IMG/VR virus record: IMGVR_UViG_3300028985_000084
Location: 1-14,391 of that record
Direction: 5' to 3' (one strand)
Length of the DNA: 14,391 nt
DNA from: a virus
Taxonomy: Duplodnaviria; Heunggongvirae; Uroviricota; Caudoviricetes
Below the pieces are notes generated by a model that was given only the letters and a program-made list of their open reading frames with translations, ran no database searches and was not told the origin of the DNA. Numbering within the stretch: position 1 is the first letter of the stretch; every line of letters begins with the position of its first letter. Of this stretch, positions 4,678-8,896 are shown in pieces. A program made the translations under genes and the position numbers.

Positions 4678-5502
4678 TCAGGCGGTGAAAGTACCAATAA
4701 AGGTTTCTACTTTGCTGTCTTTGAATTTCTCAACAAGCAGATCACGAAATTCGTTAGCCATATCTTCCTGCACCGCTTCCAGCTGAATAATGCGCATAAC
4801 CAGTACAGGACGATCGCCAGTGATAATGCTGAGGCGTAATTTAAACGGACGTTCTTTCAGACCTTCAAACGGAACGCATTTAAATTCAAATGTCACTGGC
4901 ATAATGTCTTTGGTCTTCGCTTCGACAGATTCCATCAGGGAGCGTTTGCCGCTGAAGTCATTGTCTTCAAAATCAGCGGTCTGGTTCGCTTCAATTGTGA
5001 TTTTACGGATCGCCGCAACCGCTTTGGTTGCCTGAATGGCGTCACCATTAGCATCAAAGCCCACAAGGTAGTCGGCCCAGTCTTCAATCCATTCTGCCAG
5101 TGACTTTTGGGAGTTACGCTCGCCATTAACAGACAACAGAGCAGAGAACGGTGCTGTCTTTTTCAGTTTGAGAGTGGCGGTGTTATCTGCGTGACCTGGT
5201 TCATCAATAGTACCCAGGTTAAGCACACTGACGGCACGCATATTATCGGCATCGATAAAGCAGCGGGTGCCTTCATCTGCAAGATCTTTAGAATAACGGG
5301 TAAAGTCATCGATGCTGGCAGTGGAAAGCGCACCACGGAAACGGAAGCGATTTAAATTAAATTTTTCCAGATCATGAATGCGGAAATTCTCAGGCAATGC
5401 CACAGCATCGGCACCAATCTTACTAATAATTTCATTAACACCCTGAGCAGAAATAAGGGCATGGATTTGATTAATTGCGGTTGCGTCTAAGTTCTGAGAC
5501 AT
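4678..5502 (-). CDS. yfdQ: YfdQ-like protein (DUF2303 family), function unknown
   Basis: 274-aa ORF; ATG at 5502 with GAGGA 6 nt upstream. Size and position between 120-aa and 178-aa HD genes match the CPS-53 yfdP-yfdQ-yfdR order. Confidence 0.75.
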
Positions 5503-5567
5503 AATAAGTCCTCACTATATAAAGATATTCAGTGATGAGATAAATAATCGGTTAATTAAGAACGATA

Positions 5568-5930
5568 TTAATGACCTGCTGCGCGGAGTTTTCCGTCAGG
5601 TTCACCGGCAAGAGTCAGTAATTGTCCCTGGTCTTCCTGCAGAATAGTCAGGCGACCACCTCGATTGACATACATCGGCGTTTCGGTGGTGTCTTCTTCG
5701 GAGATTTTCCCGCGGTTAGTCGGGCGAACATATGAGAGTTTGTGTTTGATTTTCACACGGTTCTCATCAAACGGTTCGATGTCCAGATTGACCGAGACTT
5801 TACCTTTGTTTTTCGTGTTCATCACACCGGAAGCGACTTCACTGAGAACTGCGCCGAGTTTGGTTTCAAATACGCCGCCGTCCAGTTCTACGATAAATAC
5901 CTGCACATCAGTACTGCGTACGCTAGCCAT
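5568..5930 (-). CDS. yfdP: YfdP-like small protein (120 aa), first gene of the leftward early cluster
   Basis: ORF track gives a 182-aa frame (5568..6116). The internal ATG at ~5930 (MASVRSTDVQ…) has GAGGAG 8 nt upstream and yields 120 aa; the 62-codon upstream extension has no SD. Confidence 0.6.
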   Translation of the reverse strand: MASVRSTDVQVFIVELDGGVFETKLGAVLSEVASGVMNTKNKGKVSVNLDIEPFDENRVKIKHKLSYVRPTNRGKISEEDTTETPMYVNRGGRLTILQEDQGQLLTLAGEPDGKLRAAGH

Positions 5931-5978
5931 TTTGCTGCTCCTCATCATACCGACCCTGCAAGGTCGGTTGGTTTCTCC

Positions 5979-6067
5979 ACAAAACAGAGAAGAACACCTG
6001 CGGTGACAGCCGCCCGGATGGATTGGGTTATGAGCCCGTCGTCCGGTGATGCTCTTCTCTGTTTTGT
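5979..6067. repeat. Perfect 15-bp inverted repeat (ACAAAACAGAGAAGA … TCTTCTCTGTTTTGT) separated by ~59 bp, in the leader upstream of the leftward cluster
   Basis: Read directly from the sequence; arms are exact reverse complements. A 15-bp perfect IR is very unlikely by chance in 14 kb. Confidence 0.8.
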
Positions 6068-6335
6068 AAAAAGAGCGGTACCAGCCGGAAGCAAGTGTAC
6101 AAACTGGTACCGCCAAAGCAGTGGCTGTTGTGGTGACCGGTGCTGATCTCCGGCTTGCGGTTATTTCAGACTCTCACGGGCGTTTAATTGCCCCGCCGAA
6201 CAGCTCTTTTCCGCAATAGCTGCAATGTCTTTCGCGCATCAGCCTGCGCATTCACCACAACGCTAAGGATTCTCTCTGGTTGAAAATACTTAGCTGTTAT
6301 GTGCCTGCTTTTAGCCACATCAGGCGAGGTGGACC

Positions 6336-6399
6336 TGGTTATTCCCCAACAACAAGGATTTGGTTATTATGTAACCCTCCCCAACAACGATAAGGATTT
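6336..6399 (+). repeat. Tandemly duplicated module TGGTTATT … CCCCAACAAC … AAGGATTT (two copies, second with short insertions)
   Basis: Direct repeat read from the sequence. Each copy ends in AAGGA followed by an ATG: copy 1 gives ATG-TAA (start-stop), copy 2 gives the ATG of mini-ORF P1. Confidence 0.7.
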
Positions 6400-6401
6400 A
6401 T

Positions 6402-6491
6402 ATGGATCTATGTGTAGATAAGTATGAGGAGAGGCATGTGCCGTTAAGACAAAAGCCTCCAGTTCCTCCAAAACCACCCAAGGAAAACTGA
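6402..6491 (+). CDS. Proline-rich mini-ORF P1 (29 aa, MDLCVDKYEERHVPLRQKPPVPPKPPKEN); possible leader peptide/uORF
   Basis: ATG with AAGGA 5 nt upstream; TGA stop 7 nt before the ATG of the downstream membrane-protein gene; paralogous to two further mini-ORFs downstream. Confidence 0.35.
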   Translation: MDLCVDKYEERHVPLRQKPPVPPKPPKEN

Positions 6492-6498
6492 GACTAAT

Positions 6499-6993
6499 AT
6501 GACCAGAGACGATTATAAATTTTATGTTCACTACTCTTATGTATTGGAGAAGATGAATTACACGTTGTTAACTCGCATTGATAAATTAATAACGTTGATG
6601 TTAATCGTTCTCGGTTTTTCAGTTTTCGCCCCGTACAGTAATTTATTTATTTTCGGTTTGTTTGTTGCCGTACTTTCGGTTCTTCAGTTGGTCTATCAGT
6701 TTGGCCAAGAGGCTGGAATGTCTAAAGAGCAAGCGAGGCATTACAAAAGACTGCTGATTGAGTCTGATACCCTTCCTGAAGATCAGTTGCAAGCTAGGTA
6801 TTTAAAAATCCAAGATACTGATAGTAATCCATGGAAATCACTTGAACGAGCGGCTTTCATTCGGGCCTGTATTTTTGCTGGTGTTCCAACTAAGTACGAT
6901 TTAACAACCAAAGAAAAATTTATAGCTTGGTGTGCGGGAGATCTACCTCTAGAGAATGAACTAACGGATATTAATGATGACCAACAAGCATAA
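6499..6993 (+). CDS. Small inner-membrane protein with two N-terminal TM helices and a ~95-aa soluble C-terminal domain; candidate superinfection-exclusion (SieB-like) or abortive-infection protein
   Basis: 164-aa ORF in an AT-rich segment. Hydrophobic stretches LITLMLIVLGFSVFAPY and LFIFGLFVAVLSVLQLVYQF. On the opposite strand to the early-left genes and convergent with the repressor, the position SieB-type genes occupy in lambdoid prophages. Functional call is positional inference only. Confidence 0.65.
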   Translation: MTRDDYKFYVHYSYVLEKMNYTLLTRIDKLITLMLIVLGFSVFAPYSNLFIFGLFVAVLSVLQLVYQFGQEAGMSKEQARHYKRLLIESDTLPEDQLQARYLKIQDTDSNPWKSLERAAFIRACIFAGVPTKYDLTTKEKFIAWCAGDLPLENELTDINDDQQA

Positions 6994-7048
6994 TCCAGTT
7001 CACGGACATGTACCTCCGAAGCCGAAACCACCGAAACCGAAGAAATGA
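6974..7048 (+). CDS. Proline-rich mini-ORF P3 (24 aa, MMTNKHNPVHGHVPPKPKPPKPKK), overlapping the 3' end of the membrane-protein gene
   Basis: Open frame from ATG ATG to TGA; no clear SD. Peptide shares the H-V-P-P-K-P-K-P-P motif with P1 and P2. Confidence 0.25.
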   Translation: MMTNKHNPVHGHVPPKPKPPKPKK

Positions 7049-7067
7049 GACATAATAGGATTGGATA

Positions 7068-7136
7068 ATGAGTCGACCAATAGAGCCTTTTCATATTCCA
7101 CCTCGTCCCAGGCCACCAGATCCAGGCCCAAAGTGA
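7068..7136 (+). CDS. Proline-rich mini-ORF P2 (22 aa, MSRPIEPFHIPPRPRPPDPGPK)
   Basis: ATG with AGGA ~7 nt upstream; followed ~25 nt later by an intrinsic terminator; paralogous to P1 and P3. Confidence 0.35.
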   Translation: MSRPIEPFHIPPRPRPPDPGPK

Positions 7137-7159
7137 GGGTTACTGATTTTTAAAGAGCG

Positions 7160-7184
7160 AAGCGTCCGGTAGGGCGCTTTTTTG
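7160..7184 (+). terminator. Rho-independent terminator closing the plus-strand insert operon
   Basis: 8-bp stem AAGCGTCC / GGGCGCTT (one G-U pair) with GGTA loop, followed by a 6-7 nt T-tract. Confidence 0.65.
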
Positions 7185-7298
7185 GTACTAACGAATCATC
7201 CTGGACTTCATATGCCCCAGGCGGCTACTTCGTGGGCGTCCTGCCTGTTCGTTATCTTTGATATAAAATCTAACTTAACTTAGTTTTAATGGCAAGAG

Positions 7299-7330
7299 AA
7301 AACACCAAACTTTTCTTAGTTCGGTGTTTT
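7299..7330 (-). terminator. Hairpin downstream of the repressor gene, candidate (bidirectional) terminator
   Basis: Inverted repeat AAAACACCAAAC … GTTCGGTGTTTT with 8-nt loop; on the minus strand the stem is followed by UUUUCUCUU; lies ~20-50 nt past the cI-type stop. Confidence 0.4.
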
Positions 7331-7349
7331 GGTTAGAGAAAAGGGGGGG

Positions 7350-7976
7350 CTAGAGTTCGTATTGAACTCCTTTGACTACACCAATGATGAGGCAATTACC
7401 ATTGATCGGGATGTTGGGGTACCGGGGATTTAATGGCACTAAAAACTTTTGAGGGCCATCGATAACTAATTTTTTTACTGTGGCTTCGTTTGTTCCATCA
7501 AGTCTAGCGATGACTATTTTTCCATGCCGGGGTTCTGCATCAGGATCTACAATCACTGTTGCGCCTTCTGGTATTGTTGGGAGGCCGTTAGGGTTAGTCA
7601 TGGAGTCGCCTTTAACCTCCAATGCAAATGAGTTATCACCAATCTTTAATGATGTATCTACCCACTTGTCTACTTCACTAAACACTTCTGCTGTCCTGCA
7701 CTCAGTAAACTGCCCAGCCTGAACCCACGAGATTACAGGAACTCTGCGCATGTTTGTGACGAGTTTGCCTTCAAACTCCGCACCATAAAGAATGTAATCT
7801 ATTGACGTATTGAAGAACTTCGCTAATTTTGAAAGTGCTTCCCCACCAGGGACATTGATGTCTTTCTCCCAGTACCCCACAGCAACGTCACTTACTCCAC
7901 AAAATTTACCCAATTCTTTCTGGGACGTTCTGGTAACTCTTCTCAGAGCTTTTATACGCTGACCAACCGTTTCCAT
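7350..7976 (-). CDS. cI: CI-type prophage repressor (N-terminal HTH, C-terminal S24 LexA-like autopeptidase domain)
   Basis: 208-aa ORF. N-terminal HTH (QKELGKFCGVSDVAVGYWE). C-terminal S24 signature including GDSM (catalytic Ser) and a downstream Lys. Divergent from a cro-like gene. Confidence 0.9.
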   Translation of the reverse strand: METVGQRIKALRRVTRTSQKELGKFCGVSDVAVGYWEKDINVPGGEALSKLAKFFNTSIDYILYGAEFEGKLVTNMRRVPVISWVQAGQFTECRTAEVFSEVDKWVDTSLKIGDNSFALEVKGDSMTNPNGLPTIPEGATVIVDPDAEPRHGKIVIARLDGTNEATVKKLVIDGPQKFLVPLNPRYPNIPINGNCLIIGVVKGVQYEL

Positions 7977-8073
7977 AGGAGCACCATTTCTTTAATTACT
8001 AAGTAATCTTAGTTTTTATTGACCTAAGATAGATTGATAATTAACATCTAATAAAACTTAGTTTGGAGGGCAT
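7977..8073. promoter_or_regulatory. Divergent immunity-region promoter/operator segment between cI-type repressor and cro (pRM/pR-like)
   Basis: AT-rich 97-bp spacer between divergent genes. Candidate rightward promoter TTGACC-17 nt-TAACAT ending ~20 nt before the cro ATG (SD GGAGG). Four CTAAG/CTTAG half-site-like motifs, including the palindromic ACTAAGTAATCTTAGT. Confidence 0.6.
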
Positions 8074-8274
8074 ATGACGACTGACGATATCGAAAGCTAC
8101 TTCGGCAGCATTGAGAAAGTTGCTGCTTTTTTCGGCATAACAACTGAAGCCGTTTATCAGTGGCGAAACCGTCCTGGCCAGTTAATTCCAAAAGGACGTG
8201 CAGCAGAGGCTGCATATAGAACTTGCGGACGGTTGCCATTTAAACCTGAGCTTTATGAAAAATCTAATGGATAA
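8074..8274 (+). CDS. cro: Cro-like HTH DNA-binding regulator
   Basis: 66-aa ORF; ATG at 8074 with GGAGG upstream; HTH segment IEKVAAFFGITTEAVYQW; divergent from the repressor. Confidence 0.8.
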   Translation: MTTDDIESYFGSIEKVAAFFGITTEAVYQWRNRPGQLIPKGRAAEAAYRTCGRLPFKPELYEKSNG

Positions 8275-8896
8275 ATCGATTTACAGAAACCACAGATATG
8301 AGGGCTTAAACGTGGGTAAAGAACCTGAATGGAAAGTTGATAAGCAACCAGCATGGCTGGTGGCAGCAATACGAAGAACGATTGCTGATTTACCTCATGG
8401 CTATGAGGAAGCAGCAGAAATTCTTGGTTTGTATAAATCTGATGATATCACCCCAGCAAAAGATCAATTGCATAACAGACTGCGTAGCGGTGGGGATCAA
8501 ATTTTTCCACTTGAGTGGGCCATGGTTTTACAGGATGCCAGTGGTACCAGGCATGTAACGGATGCAATAGCCCGTCGTAGTAATGGGGTGTTTGTGCCGC
8601 TGGTGGTCATTGATGACATTGACAATGGTGACATTAATCAGCGGCTGATGGAGTCAATAGAATGGATTGGCAAGCATTCCCAGTACTTACGCAAGGCAAC
8701 TGCTGATGGAGTTATTGACCAGGCTGAGCGTGAGCAAATCGAAGAGAACAGCTACCAAGTAATGGCGAAGTGGCAGGAGCATTTAACACTGTTATTTCGT
8801 GTTTTTTGTGCGCCGGAAAAGAGTAACGCCCGCGAGTGTGCAGCTCCGGGCGTCGTGGCGTCGATTGCTTCTGGTTGTGGAGAAACTAACGCATGA
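8255..8896 (+). CDS. YdaT/CII-like early regulatory protein (start uncertain)
   Basis: ORF track frame opens at a GTG (8198) inside cro. More likely starts are the ATGs at ~8255 or ~8267 (MKNLMDKS…). Immediately follows cro as ydaT/cII-type genes do; no strong SD, so the start is uncertain. Confidence 0.55.

What the first reader, a model, noticed from the sequence alone, without database searches (positions are those of the whole stretch)
6300..7190. AT-rich insert between the early-left cluster and the repressor: candidate single-gene superinfection-exclusion or abortive-infection module
The segment ~6300-7190 is markedly more AT-rich than flanking phage genes, is transcribed opposite to the early-left genes and convergent with cI, and ends in its own intrinsic terminator (~7160-7184). 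That is the signature of an independently expressed insert in the immunity region, where lambdoid phages carry sieB, rex and other exclusion genes. The only sizeable gene encodes a 164-aa protein with an N-terminal two-helix membrane hairpin and a ~95-aa cytoplasmic C-terminal domain that I cannot place in any family from memory. Its SieB-like assignment rests on position and topology only, so it may be a different, undescribed membrane-anchored defence effector.
Basis: inference. Interest (0 to 1): 0.7.

Follow-up and report, generated by a model that had tools for sequence, protein, structure and literature searches.

The report
Prophage membrane effector with proline micropeptides
The slot next to this prophage's repressor holds a four-gene operon, not one gene: a two-helix membrane protein distantly resembling SLATT pore-forming defence effectors, always accompanied by tiny unannotated proline-rich peptide genes of untested function.

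Summary
Window 6300-7190 has GC 0.415 against 0.486 for the whole window. It runs opposite to the early-left genes and convergent with cI, and ends in a hairpin plus U-run at 7159-7183. It encodes a 164-aa protein with two transmembrane helices.

The 'single-gene, SieB-like' reading needs correction in three ways.
- **Not SieB.** There is no Pfam, PADLOC or NCBIfam hit. The protein belongs to an uncharacterised family of about 150-aa proteins (221 cluster representatives) that is remotely SLATT-like. 48 of 112 members hit NCBIfam SLATT_4 below cutoff, and the top Foldseek matches are SLATT proteins.
- **Not single-gene.** Three conserved proline-rich micro-ORFs flank it: 6402-6491, 6974-7048 and 7068-7136. 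53 of 57 distinct family members have such an ORF ending 4-20 nt before the start codon, against 1.7% at random positions. The downstream ORFs show coding-type substitution (170 synonymous vs 66 non-synonymous codon differences). In 2.9 million viral contigs, both peptide motifs occur only beside this gene.
- **A cargo in a shared slot.** Other cargos use the same leader and terminator. The slot lies antisense, downstream of pL.

Defence function is inferred, not shown. My best model is a membrane effector whose synthesis is coupled to, and probably regulated by, the micropeptides.

The parts
6333..6401 (+). Conserved leader of the expression slot. It has two copies of TCCCCAACAAC..AAGGAT (6343-6359 and 6378-6397), the second providing the Shine-Dalgarno for the first cargo ORF. 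A possible weak promoter is TTCCCC(6342-6347)-17-TATTAT(6365-6370).
   Evidence: It is nearly invariant across loci whose coding sequences have diverged to 55% aa identity. The same leader drives the ECs1072-family cargo. The RNA is less structured than shuffles, z = +1.63. The promoter assignment is my reading only and falls below the scan threshold.
6402..6491 (+). uORF, 29 aa: MDLCVDKYEERHVPLRQKPPVPPKPPKEN. The stop codon lies 7 nt before the 2TM start.
   Evidence: 53 of 57 distinct family members have a Pro-rich ORF ending 4-20 nt upstream, against 1.7% at random positions. Its ATG sits at the position where the annotated start codons of alternative cargos sit. The YEE[RK]HMPP motif occurs in IMG/VR only upstream of family genes: 20 of 25 matches lie on contigs already fetched for the gene, and the other 5 were checked by HMM.
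6499..6993 (+). 164-aa two-TM, all-helical membrane protein (WP_001513551.1, 'hypothetical protein'), remote SLATT-like family.
6974..7048 (+). dORF1, 24 aa: MMTNKHNPVHGHVPPKPKPPKPKK. It overlaps the 3' end of the 2TM gene by 20 nt in another frame.
   Evidence: The homologous motif is fused in frame to the 2TM protein in Pectobacterium (P0013).
7068..7136 (+). dORF2, 22 aa: MSRPIEPFHIPPRPRPPDPGPK, with its own AGGA Shine-Dalgarno.
   Evidence: Variable sites by codon position are 10/12/40, with 170 synonymous vs 66 non-synonymous pairwise codon differences. All 18 IMG/VR occurrences of the motif lie on contigs that carry the 2TM gene.
7159..7183 (+). Intrinsic terminator of the cassette (hairpin 7159-7180 running into a U6 tract).
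   Evidence: The sequence is conserved in L099 and L002.
7264..7295 (-). Probable pL/oL: a promoter-like TTGCCA-17-TAGATT overlapping an operator copy. Leftward early transcription would therefore cross the cassette antisense.
   Evidence: promoter-like site 7295->7267. (7264-7294 is 77% and 68% identical to the two oR operator copies).
7299..7330 (-). cI terminator hairpin (context, not part of the cassette).
   Evidence: -15.6 kcal/mol, z = -4.6. (inverted repeat I6).

Best explanation
Shown:
- Window 6333-7183 is one cargo of a conserved 'moron slot' that lies between pL/oL and the early-left genes, antisense to pL transcription.
- The cargo is a compact operon: a 29-aa proline-rich uORF, then 7 nt later a 164-aa two-TM helical membrane protein, then two proline-rich micro-ORFs of 24 and 22 aa, then a terminator.
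- The peptides share the core H-[VIM]-P-P-x-P-[RK]-P-P, evolve under purifying selection, and in viral contigs are found only next to this gene.

Inferred:
- The operon is expressed in the lysogen, and shut off when pL fires across it.
- The membrane protein is a remote SLATT-type effector that can permeabilise the inner membrane. It would serve superinfection exclusion or abortive infection.
- Its synthesis is translationally coupled to, and throttled by, the uORF. In most relatives the uORF stop codon lies inside the effector's Shine-Dalgarno (UGAGGUG).
- The micropeptides act as its obligate regulators, most likely short-lived inhibitors.
- A drop in translation capacity during infection would then lower peptide supply and release the effector. 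Polyproline peptides are the first to suffer from such a drop.
For: - Anatomy and conservation.
- Coupling geometry: the gap is 4-20 nt (most often 8), and the stop overlaps the SD in most loci.
- Slot with shared leader and terminator and swappable cargo.
- pL/oL position.
- Fixed position beside diverse repressors, and antisense in the early operon of Fels-2.
- SLATT-like signal: UniRef names two homologues SLATT. NCBIfam SLATT_4 is hit by 48 of 112 family members and SLATT_1 by 15 of 112, best E = 2.2e-5. 5 of the top 8 Foldseek matches in BFVD are SLATT proteins.
- SLATT proteins are described as predicted pore-forming effectors of defence systems (DRT10 preprint).
- A natural in-frame fusion of a micropeptide motif to the membrane protein in Pectobacterium suggests a functional link.
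Against: - There is no experimental or expression evidence of any kind.
- The window protein itself hits no SLATT model at E <= 10. Family hits are below curated cutoffs, and the Foldseek E-values of 0.15-0.6 are not significant.
- There is no partner enzyme (SMODS, SLOG or RT) of the kind that accompanies known SLATT effectors.
- No PADLOC hit for this protein or for eight proteins from alternative cargos of the same slot. Guilt by association with defence is therefore absent.
- No clear sigma-70 promoter was found.
- The peptide-as-inhibitor step is pure inference. The fusion-protein model gave only pLDDT 55-63 for the tail.
- The uORF alone could be explained as a cis-acting leader.
Confidence: 0.4

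Rival explanations
1. Cis-only leader model. The proline-rich uORF is a ribosome-pausing leader peptide, either polyproline/EF-P-dependent or an intrinsic arrest sequence. Its only job is to set or condition translation of a toxic membrane protein through the overlapping stop/Shine-Dalgarno. The released peptides have no function. The downstream micro-ORFs are duplicated copies that tune mRNA stability or nothing.
For: - The uORF is the universal feature (53 of 57), with a fixed short gap and the stop inside the SD.
- The Pro-rich motif sits near the C-terminus, as in known arrest peptides. RAPP-type arrest peptides lie upstream of genes of many functions (PMC12992588).
- Peptides of 21-35 aa would lie almost wholly inside the exit tunnel (general knowledge, not tested here). 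Whole-length conservation is therefore compatible with tunnel contacts.
- Downstream micro-ORFs are confined mainly to the enterobacterial subfamily.
Against: - Downstream micro-ORFs cannot control translation of the upstream gene, yet they have their own SDs and a clear coding signature.
- They end 22 nt before the terminator hairpin, so they do not attenuate it.
- No conserved hairpin masks the effector's start.
- The invariant His and the N-terminal MS[KR]PIEPF block are not explained by polyproline pausing alone.
- The window's peptides contain no R-[AG]-P-P arrest motif.
Confidence: 0.25
2. Peptides-as-effectors model. The micropeptides are intracellular analogues of proline-rich antimicrobial peptides that bind the ribosome exit tunnel, or DnaK, and block translation or phage replication. 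The membrane protein is their partner as sensor, immunity factor or exporter.
For: - dORF2 reads HIPPRPRPP, against the oncocin core YLPRPRPP (oncocin sequence in a reference title of PMC4797290).
- PrAMPs block the exit tunnel through a common core.
- The peptides are obligately linked to the membrane protein.
Against: - The resemblance rests on a low-complexity Pro/Arg core with one extra Pro.
- Many family peptides are Lys-, Ala- or Glu-rich rather than Arg-rich.
- Constitutive intracellular translation inhibitors would harm the lysogen.
- There is no signal peptide or export machinery.
- Nothing was tested.
Confidence: 0.1
3. Non-defence cargo. The operon serves the prophage or host in another way, for example membrane or stress sensing that feeds into induction, lysis timing or lysogenic conversion. 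The SLATT-like look is only that of a generic helical hairpin.
For: - There are no defence HMM hits for any cargo of the slot.
- The SLATT signals are sub-threshold.
Against: - The position, antisense arrangement, AT-richness and cargo turnover are those of lysogeny-expressed accessory genes.
- Three independent weak signals all point to the same SLATT family.
- It is not located in a lysis cassette, and no holin or spanin PHROG matches.
Confidence: 0.2
4. It is a divergent SieB homologue acting like lambda or P22 SieB.
For: The resemblance is positional only. It is a membrane protein gene in the immunity region, opposite to early-left transcription.
Against: The protein has no match to any Pfam family, which includes SieB, at E <= 10. 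No exclusion-annotated PHROG matches. The weak relatives that do appear are SLATT families.
Confidence: 0.03

Closest known systems
[quoted passage not shown]
   Same: - Size of about 150 aa.
- An N-terminal helix, a two-TM hairpin and a helical cytoplasmic tail.
- Encoded on mobile or defence-type loci.
- Recurrent sub-threshold HMM hits and top-ranked structural matches.
- Two homologues are named SLATT by UniRef.
   Different: - The window protein reaches no SLATT model.
- No nucleotide-generating or reverse-transcriptase partner is present. Its only constant partners are proline-rich micro-ORFs.
- It sits in a prophage immunity-region slot.
SieB of lambda and P22 (superinfection exclusion B)
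   Same: It is a membrane protein gene in the immunity or early-left region, presumably expressed in the lysogen. The orientation of sieB is from my own recollection and was not tested here.
   Different: There is no sequence relationship, and the operon architecture with micropeptides is different.
Regulatory arrest or leader peptides upstream of a controlled gene (SecM, MifM, and RAPP-type ApdA/ApdP/ApcA)
   Same: A small uORF with a Pro-containing motif near its C-terminus sits immediately upstream of the controlled gene (PMC12992588).
   Different: - There is no R-[AG]-P-P motif.
- There is no N-terminal signal or TM segment.
- Paralogous peptide genes also lie downstream of the gene.
- No SD-masking hairpin was found.
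hok/mok-type coupling of a membrane toxin to an upstream reading frame (established knowledge, not tested here)
   Same: Translation of a potentially membrane-damaging protein is tied to a short upstream ORF, keeping basal synthesis low.
   Different: No antisense RNA partner was identified, although pL transcription would be antisense. The protein is three times larger. The uORF does not overlap the gene and is proline-rich.
Proline-rich antimicrobial peptides (oncocin, Bac7, apidaecin)
   Same: Peptides of about 20 aa with a [aromatic/His]-[aliphatic]-P-(P)-R-P-R-P-P core.
   Different: These peptides are bacterial or phage encoded and made inside the cell. They are obligately linked to a membrane protein. 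Many members are not Arg-rich. Ribosome binding is untested.

Membership tests
SieB (Pfam SieB family) | Sequence match to the SieB profile | tested here: not met
   No Pfam family at E <= 10 for the 164-aa protein. None among 112 family members at E <= 0.01.
SieB (Pfam SieB family) | Membrane protein gene in the immunity or early-left region, expressed independently of pL | tested here: inconclusive
   Position and strand fit. Expression was not tested and no clear promoter was found.
SLATT domain | Match to a SLATT HMM above the curated cutoff | tested here: not met
   The window protein has 0 hits in Pfam and NCBIfam. Where individual scores were shown they were far below the curated cutoff (SLATT_4 13.2 bits against 55 for P0032).
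SLATT domain | Remote homology at family level | tested here: inconclusive
   At E <= 1, SLATT_4 is hit by 48 of 112 members (best 2.2e-5), SLATT_1 by 15 and SLATT_fungal by 3. Unrelated families appear in 1-7 members. Pfam SLATT_4 is hit by only 2 of 112.
SLATT domain | Fold: helix, two-TM hairpin, helical tail | tested here: inconclusive
   The AF2 model fits this description. 5 of the top 8 BFVD Foldseek matches are SLATT proteins, but with E = 0.15-0.6. The PDB holds only generic hairpins.
SLATT domain | Genomic association with SMODS, SLOG, reverse transcriptase or another signal-generating partner | tested here: not met
   No such gene lies in the cassette, in the window or in the related loci. 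The neighbours are micro-ORFs and phage regulatory genes.
RAPP-type translation arrest peptides | R-[AG]-P-P (or RAGP) core near the C-terminus of a small uORF | tested here: not met
   The window peptides read RQKPPVPPKPPKEN, PPKPKPPKPKK and PPRPRPPDPGPK. No RAPP or RGPP occurs in the peptide alignments. The motif definition is from PMC12992588.
RAPP-type translation arrest peptides | Ribosome stalling that controls the downstream gene | not testable with these tools
   This needs toeprinting or reporter assays. The geometry is compatible.
Proline-rich antimicrobial peptides | Pro/Arg-rich core with PRP repeats | tested here: inconclusive
   dORF2 has PRPRPP. Other members are Lys-, Ala- or Glu-rich.
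Proline-rich antimicrobial peptides | Binding to the ribosome exit tunnel or DnaK with growth inhibition | not testable with these tools
   No computation here addresses binding.
Known anti-phage defence systems (PADLOC-DB v2) | Match to any defence-system HMM | tested here: not met
   0 families for the 164-aa protein at E <= 10. 0 families at E <= 0.01 for eight proteins from alternative cargos of the slot.
Holins / spanins | Family match and location in a lysis cassette | tested here: not met
   The only match is a chance-level Rz-like PHROG hit, E = 0.42. The gene lies in the immunity region.

The most novel reading that the evidence does not exclude
The micropeptides with the core H-[VIM]-P-P-x-P-[RK]-P-P are a new class of phage-encoded functional peptides. 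They would directly gate a SLATT-like membrane pore, or act on the ribosome that makes them. The result would be a minimal, enzyme-free sensor-effector module that reads out the cell's translation capacity and triggers exclusion or abortive infection. This would be a peptide-regulated SLATT system with no nucleotide signal.
Probability: 0.25. Interest if true: 0.8.

Novelty: new variant of a known kind. Interest (0 to 1): 0.62.

Why it matters
- SLATT-type two-TM effectors are known only as the killing arm of multi-gene systems whose sensor is an enzyme. How they are switched on is still an open question.
- Here a SLATT-like protein has, as its only constant partners, 21-35-aa proline-rich peptides that annotation pipelines miss. 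One of eight such peptides looked up was found in a 15-billion-protein collection.
- If the peptides regulate the membrane protein, this is a very small and experimentally tractable system for studying how such effectors are held in check.
- It would also add a family of conserved micropeptides to phage biology.
- It defines a reusable expression slot, with shared leader and terminator, beside the repressor of SfV-like and related prophages. The slot's diverse cargos are all uncharacterised.
- The exact 164-aa protein is on at least 1000 contigs. The full cassette is in 47 of 5426 complete E. coli genomes.

Tried and rejected
- **Family searches on the 164-aa protein.** Pfam, PADLOC and NCBIfam gave nothing. 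PHROGs gave only unknown-function families 6315 and 23697.
- **RNA families.** An Rfam scan of 5400-8400 at E <= 1 gave nothing.
- **Species-representative genomes.** The genome-contig scan returned no confirmed relative.
- **Broad alignments as queries.** Alignments A2 and A4 were too divergent for related-locus scans.
- **Natural fusion protein P0013.** Its AF2 model did not show a confident docked tail, pLDDT 55-63.
- **Hairpin at the uORF/2TM junction.** I looked for a conserved SD-masking hairpin and found none.
- **Promoter.** I looked for a canonical sigma-70 promoter for the cassette and found none above threshold.
- **Defence hotspot test.** None of eight proteins from alternative cargos matched a PADLOC model, and none gave an informative Pfam hit.
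- **Literature.** Searches for proline-rich small ORFs with SLATT or prophage defence found no description of this arrangement.
- **svsR.** This sRNA of SfV-like prophages maps to the 3' end of cI, not to this cassette.
- **Minus-strand reading.** I considered and rejected the reading that the Pro-rich stretches are really Gly-rich ORFs on the minus strand. On the + strand the peptides have conserved starts, SDs and stops, and third-position variation.
Full report
**What is there**

The window is an SfV/e14-like lambdoid prophage. It carries integrase, excisionase and early-left genes including yfdR, yfdQ and a yfdP-like gene on the minus strand. A LexA-type cI repressor lies at 7350..7976 (-) and cro at 8074..8274 (+), followed by replication and late-regulatory genes.

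The flagged segment behaves as described:
- GC is 0.415 for 6300-7190 and 0.378 for the main gene, against 0.486 for the window. That places it in the lowest 3% of equal-sized sliding windows. The repressor side is itself fairly AT-rich.
- The 164-aa ORF 6499..6993 is on the plus strand, opposite to the early-left genes and convergent with cI.
- A 9-bp hairpin at 7159-7180 (-14.2 kcal/mol) runs into a U-tract ending at 7183.
- The protein has two adjacent hydrophobic segments, at about residues 27-45 and 47-67.
- Its AF2 model (pLDDT 76.5) is a long helical hairpin followed by four short helices.

**Where it sits**

An operator copy at 7264-7294 is 77% and 68% identical to the two oR operators. 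It overlaps a promoter-like site on the minus strand, TTGCCA-17-TAGATT. So pL/oL lies just left of the cI terminator (hairpin 7299-7330), and the cassette lies downstream of pL but antisense to it. I infer that it can be expressed in the lysogen and is overrun by early-left transcription after induction.

**A shared slot with swappable cargo**

BLAST against phages and 5,426 complete E. coli genomes shows a consistent pattern.
- The flanks are widespread: window 6247-6332 on the left, and from 7190 to about 7253 or 7346 on the right. 2,420 genomes have some match.
- The interior is replaced by other sequences. Only 47 genomes and no isolated phage carry this cargo.
- In strain E19025 an ECs1072-family gene occupies the slot. 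It is driven by the same leader (ATTCCCCAACAACAAGGATT...CCCCAACAAC...AAGGA-ATG) and closed by the same terminator.
- Four further strains carry three other cargo types, unrelated hypothetical proteins of 91 or about 170 aa. In three of those strains the cargo's start codon is at the position of the window's 6402 ATG.
- The leader is nearly invariant across loci whose proteins have diverged to 55% identity. It is less structured than shuffled sequence.
- The same cargo sits 0.4-0.9 kb from cI-type repressors that are only 31-100% identical.

**The membrane protein**

The direct family searches gave little:
- It has no Pfam, PADLOC or NCBIfam hit.
- It falls in PHROG 6315, of unknown function.
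- RefSeq calls it a hypothetical protein. The exact sequence is on at least 1000 contigs.
- Word-indexed search finds 72 close homologues, all from Enterobacterales.
- A profile search of 1.84 billion representatives finds 221 clusters, nearly all 150-180 aa and matched full-length.

SieB is excluded at the sequence level. Three weak but concordant signals point to SLATT:
- UniRef names two homologues SLATT.
- 48 of 112 diverse family members hit NCBIfam SLATT_4 at E <= 1 (best 2.2e-5) and 15 hit SLATT_1. Unrelated families recur in at most 7 members.
- Five of the top eight Foldseek matches among viral predicted structures are SLATT proteins, with non-significant E-values of 0.15-0.6.

Against membership, the individual scores seen are far below the curated cutoff. 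Pfam's own SLATT models see almost nothing. The PDB offers only generic hairpins. The defining genomic partners (SMODS, SLOG, RT) are absent.

I therefore call it remotely SLATT-like, not a demonstrated member.

**The micro-ORFs, the main new finding**

Three small plus-strand ORFs lie within the finding's coordinates:

| ORF | Coordinates | Peptide |
|---|---|---|
| uORF | 6402-6491 | MDLCVDKYEERHVPLRQKPPVPPKPPKEN |
| dORF1 | 6974-7048 | MMTNKHNPVHGHVPPKPKPPKPKK |
| dORF2 | 7068-7136 | MSRPIEPFHIPPRPRPPDPGPK |

Their conservation across relatives is strong.
- In 46 of the 48 IMG/VR loci of close relatives where the upstream DNA is present, the gene is preceded by a Pro-rich ORF. Most of these carry ...YEE[RK]H[MVL]P...RP.PPKP with an acidic tail. 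In all but one of the 50 loci it is followed by one to three ORFs of the type M[ST][KR]P[IV][EI]P[FN]H[VIA]PP.P[RK]PP... These lie in different frames relative to the main gene.
- The upstream ORF persists in relatives of 33-44% identity from hosts with GC 0.43-0.61, and in Fels-2. There the whole unit is unannotated and an antisense ORF was called instead.
- Counting distinct proteins, 53 of 57 have a Pro-rich ORF ending 4-20 nt before the start codon, against 1.7% at random positions in the same loci. Shared ancestry inflates this contrast, but the proteins span less than 30% identity.
- Most have good Shine-Dalgarno sequences.
- For the commonest downstream type, variable sites fall 10/12/40 on codon positions 1/2/3. 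Pairwise codon differences are 170 synonymous against 66 non-synonymous. Identical peptides are encoded by up to six synonymous differences.
- A degenerate DNA pattern for ...PFH[VI]PP.PRPP matches 18 places in 2.9 million viral contigs, all on contigs that carry the membrane protein gene.
- A pattern for YEE.HMPP matches 25 places. Twenty lie on contigs already fetched for the gene. The other five were checked by HMM and each has a family gene just downstream.
- One of the eight peptide sequences looked up is present in a 15-billion-protein collection.
- In Pectobacterium the downstream peptide is fused in frame to the C-terminus of the membrane protein and still preceded by its own SD and ATG.

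So the unit is an operon of a membrane protein and obligate proline-rich micropeptides. The peptide alignments give nearly invariant H-x-P-P-x-P-x-P-P.

**How it may work**

*Shown.* The gene order, the tight uORF-gene spacing and, in most relatives, a uORF stop codon embedded in the effector's SD (UGAGGUG). In the window the equivalent sequence is a weaker UGAGAC. No conserved SD-masking hairpin exists.

*Inferred.*
- Effector synthesis is coupled to completion of a slow-to-translate uORF, which would keep it low.
- The peptides, being obligate and under selection over their whole length, probably also act as products.
- My preferred reading (confidence 0.4) is that they hold a SLATT-like pore inactive. 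Loss of peptide supply during infection would then release it, giving exclusion or abortive infection.

*Rivals.*
- A purely cis-acting leader (0.25). This is favoured by the universality of the uORF and by analogy with arrest peptides. It is weakened by the downstream paralogues and by the lack of a RAPP motif.
- Peptides as PrAMP-like effectors (0.1). This is suggested by HIPPRPRPP against the oncocin core YLPRPRPP.
- A non-defence role (0.2).
- SieB (0.03).

Nothing here demonstrates defence. No cargo protein of this slot that I tested matches a known defence model.

**Verdict**

It misses that the module is multi-gene.

I rate it a new variant of a known kind, namely a SLATT-like effector with micropeptide partners instead of an enzyme. 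Interest is moderate to high, because the micropeptide association is strong, unannotated and directly testable.

Noticed in passing
window 6150-6267: A 118-bp stretch is 98-100% identical to sequence in P1-like phages and plasmids, in many lambdoid prophages and in thousands of E. coli records. In phage JL22 it spans the 3' end of plp and the spacer before tRNA-Thr. It mostly carries no annotation there. It folds no better than shuffled sequence on either strand (z = -0.14 and -0.61), and its nature is unexplained.
   Followed up: partly
window 6342-6397: The slot leader contains two copies of TCCCCAACAAC..(A)AGGAT about 35 nt apart. The second overlaps the Shine-Dalgarno. The RNA is unusually unstructured. 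The two exposed A(N)GGA motifs look like a CsrA-type binding arrangement, which is my speculation and was not tested.
   Followed up: partly
window 6184-6318 (-): A 44-aa ORF (MAKSRHITAKYFQPERILSVVVNAQADARKTLQLLRKRAVRRGN) lies in the conserved left flank. Its relatives are annotated as a frameshifted hypothetical protein, or as YmfH in K-12 e14. It would be the first gene after the cassette on the pL transcript. Its function is unknown.
   Followed up: no
L100 (Fels-2, NC_010463.1 30200-30810): In Salmonella phage Fels-2 the uORF (…MSDSDNFHVLPRPAPAPKPEPGQDKK) and the 152-aa family member are not annotated. A 134-aa ORF on the opposite strand (STM2733.1) is annotated instead and is probably spurious.
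   Followed up: partly
L002, L003, L143-L147 (same slot in other E. coli prophages and SfV): Alternative cargos of the slot are all uncharacterised. They are an ECs1072-family protein plus a 68-aa antisense gene, hypothetical proteins of 91 aa and about 170 aa, and SfV orf33. None matches PADLOC, and none gives an informative Pfam hit.
   Followed up: partly
window 7264-7295 (-): A probable pL/oL lies immediately left of the cI terminator. No N-like antiterminator gene is evident between it and the early-left genes.
   Followed up: partly
cluster of the 164-aa protein: Some E. coli genomes carry truncated versions, for example a 91-aa C-terminal fragment on 28 contigs, which also defines PHROG 23697. 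This may reflect inactivation of the gene in some lineages.
   Followed up: no
window 7350-7430 (3' end of cI): A published sRNA, svsR, of SfV-like prophage NC-SV is reported on the strand opposite to the 3' end of cI (PMC12803456). I did not check whether this window encodes it.
   Followed up: no
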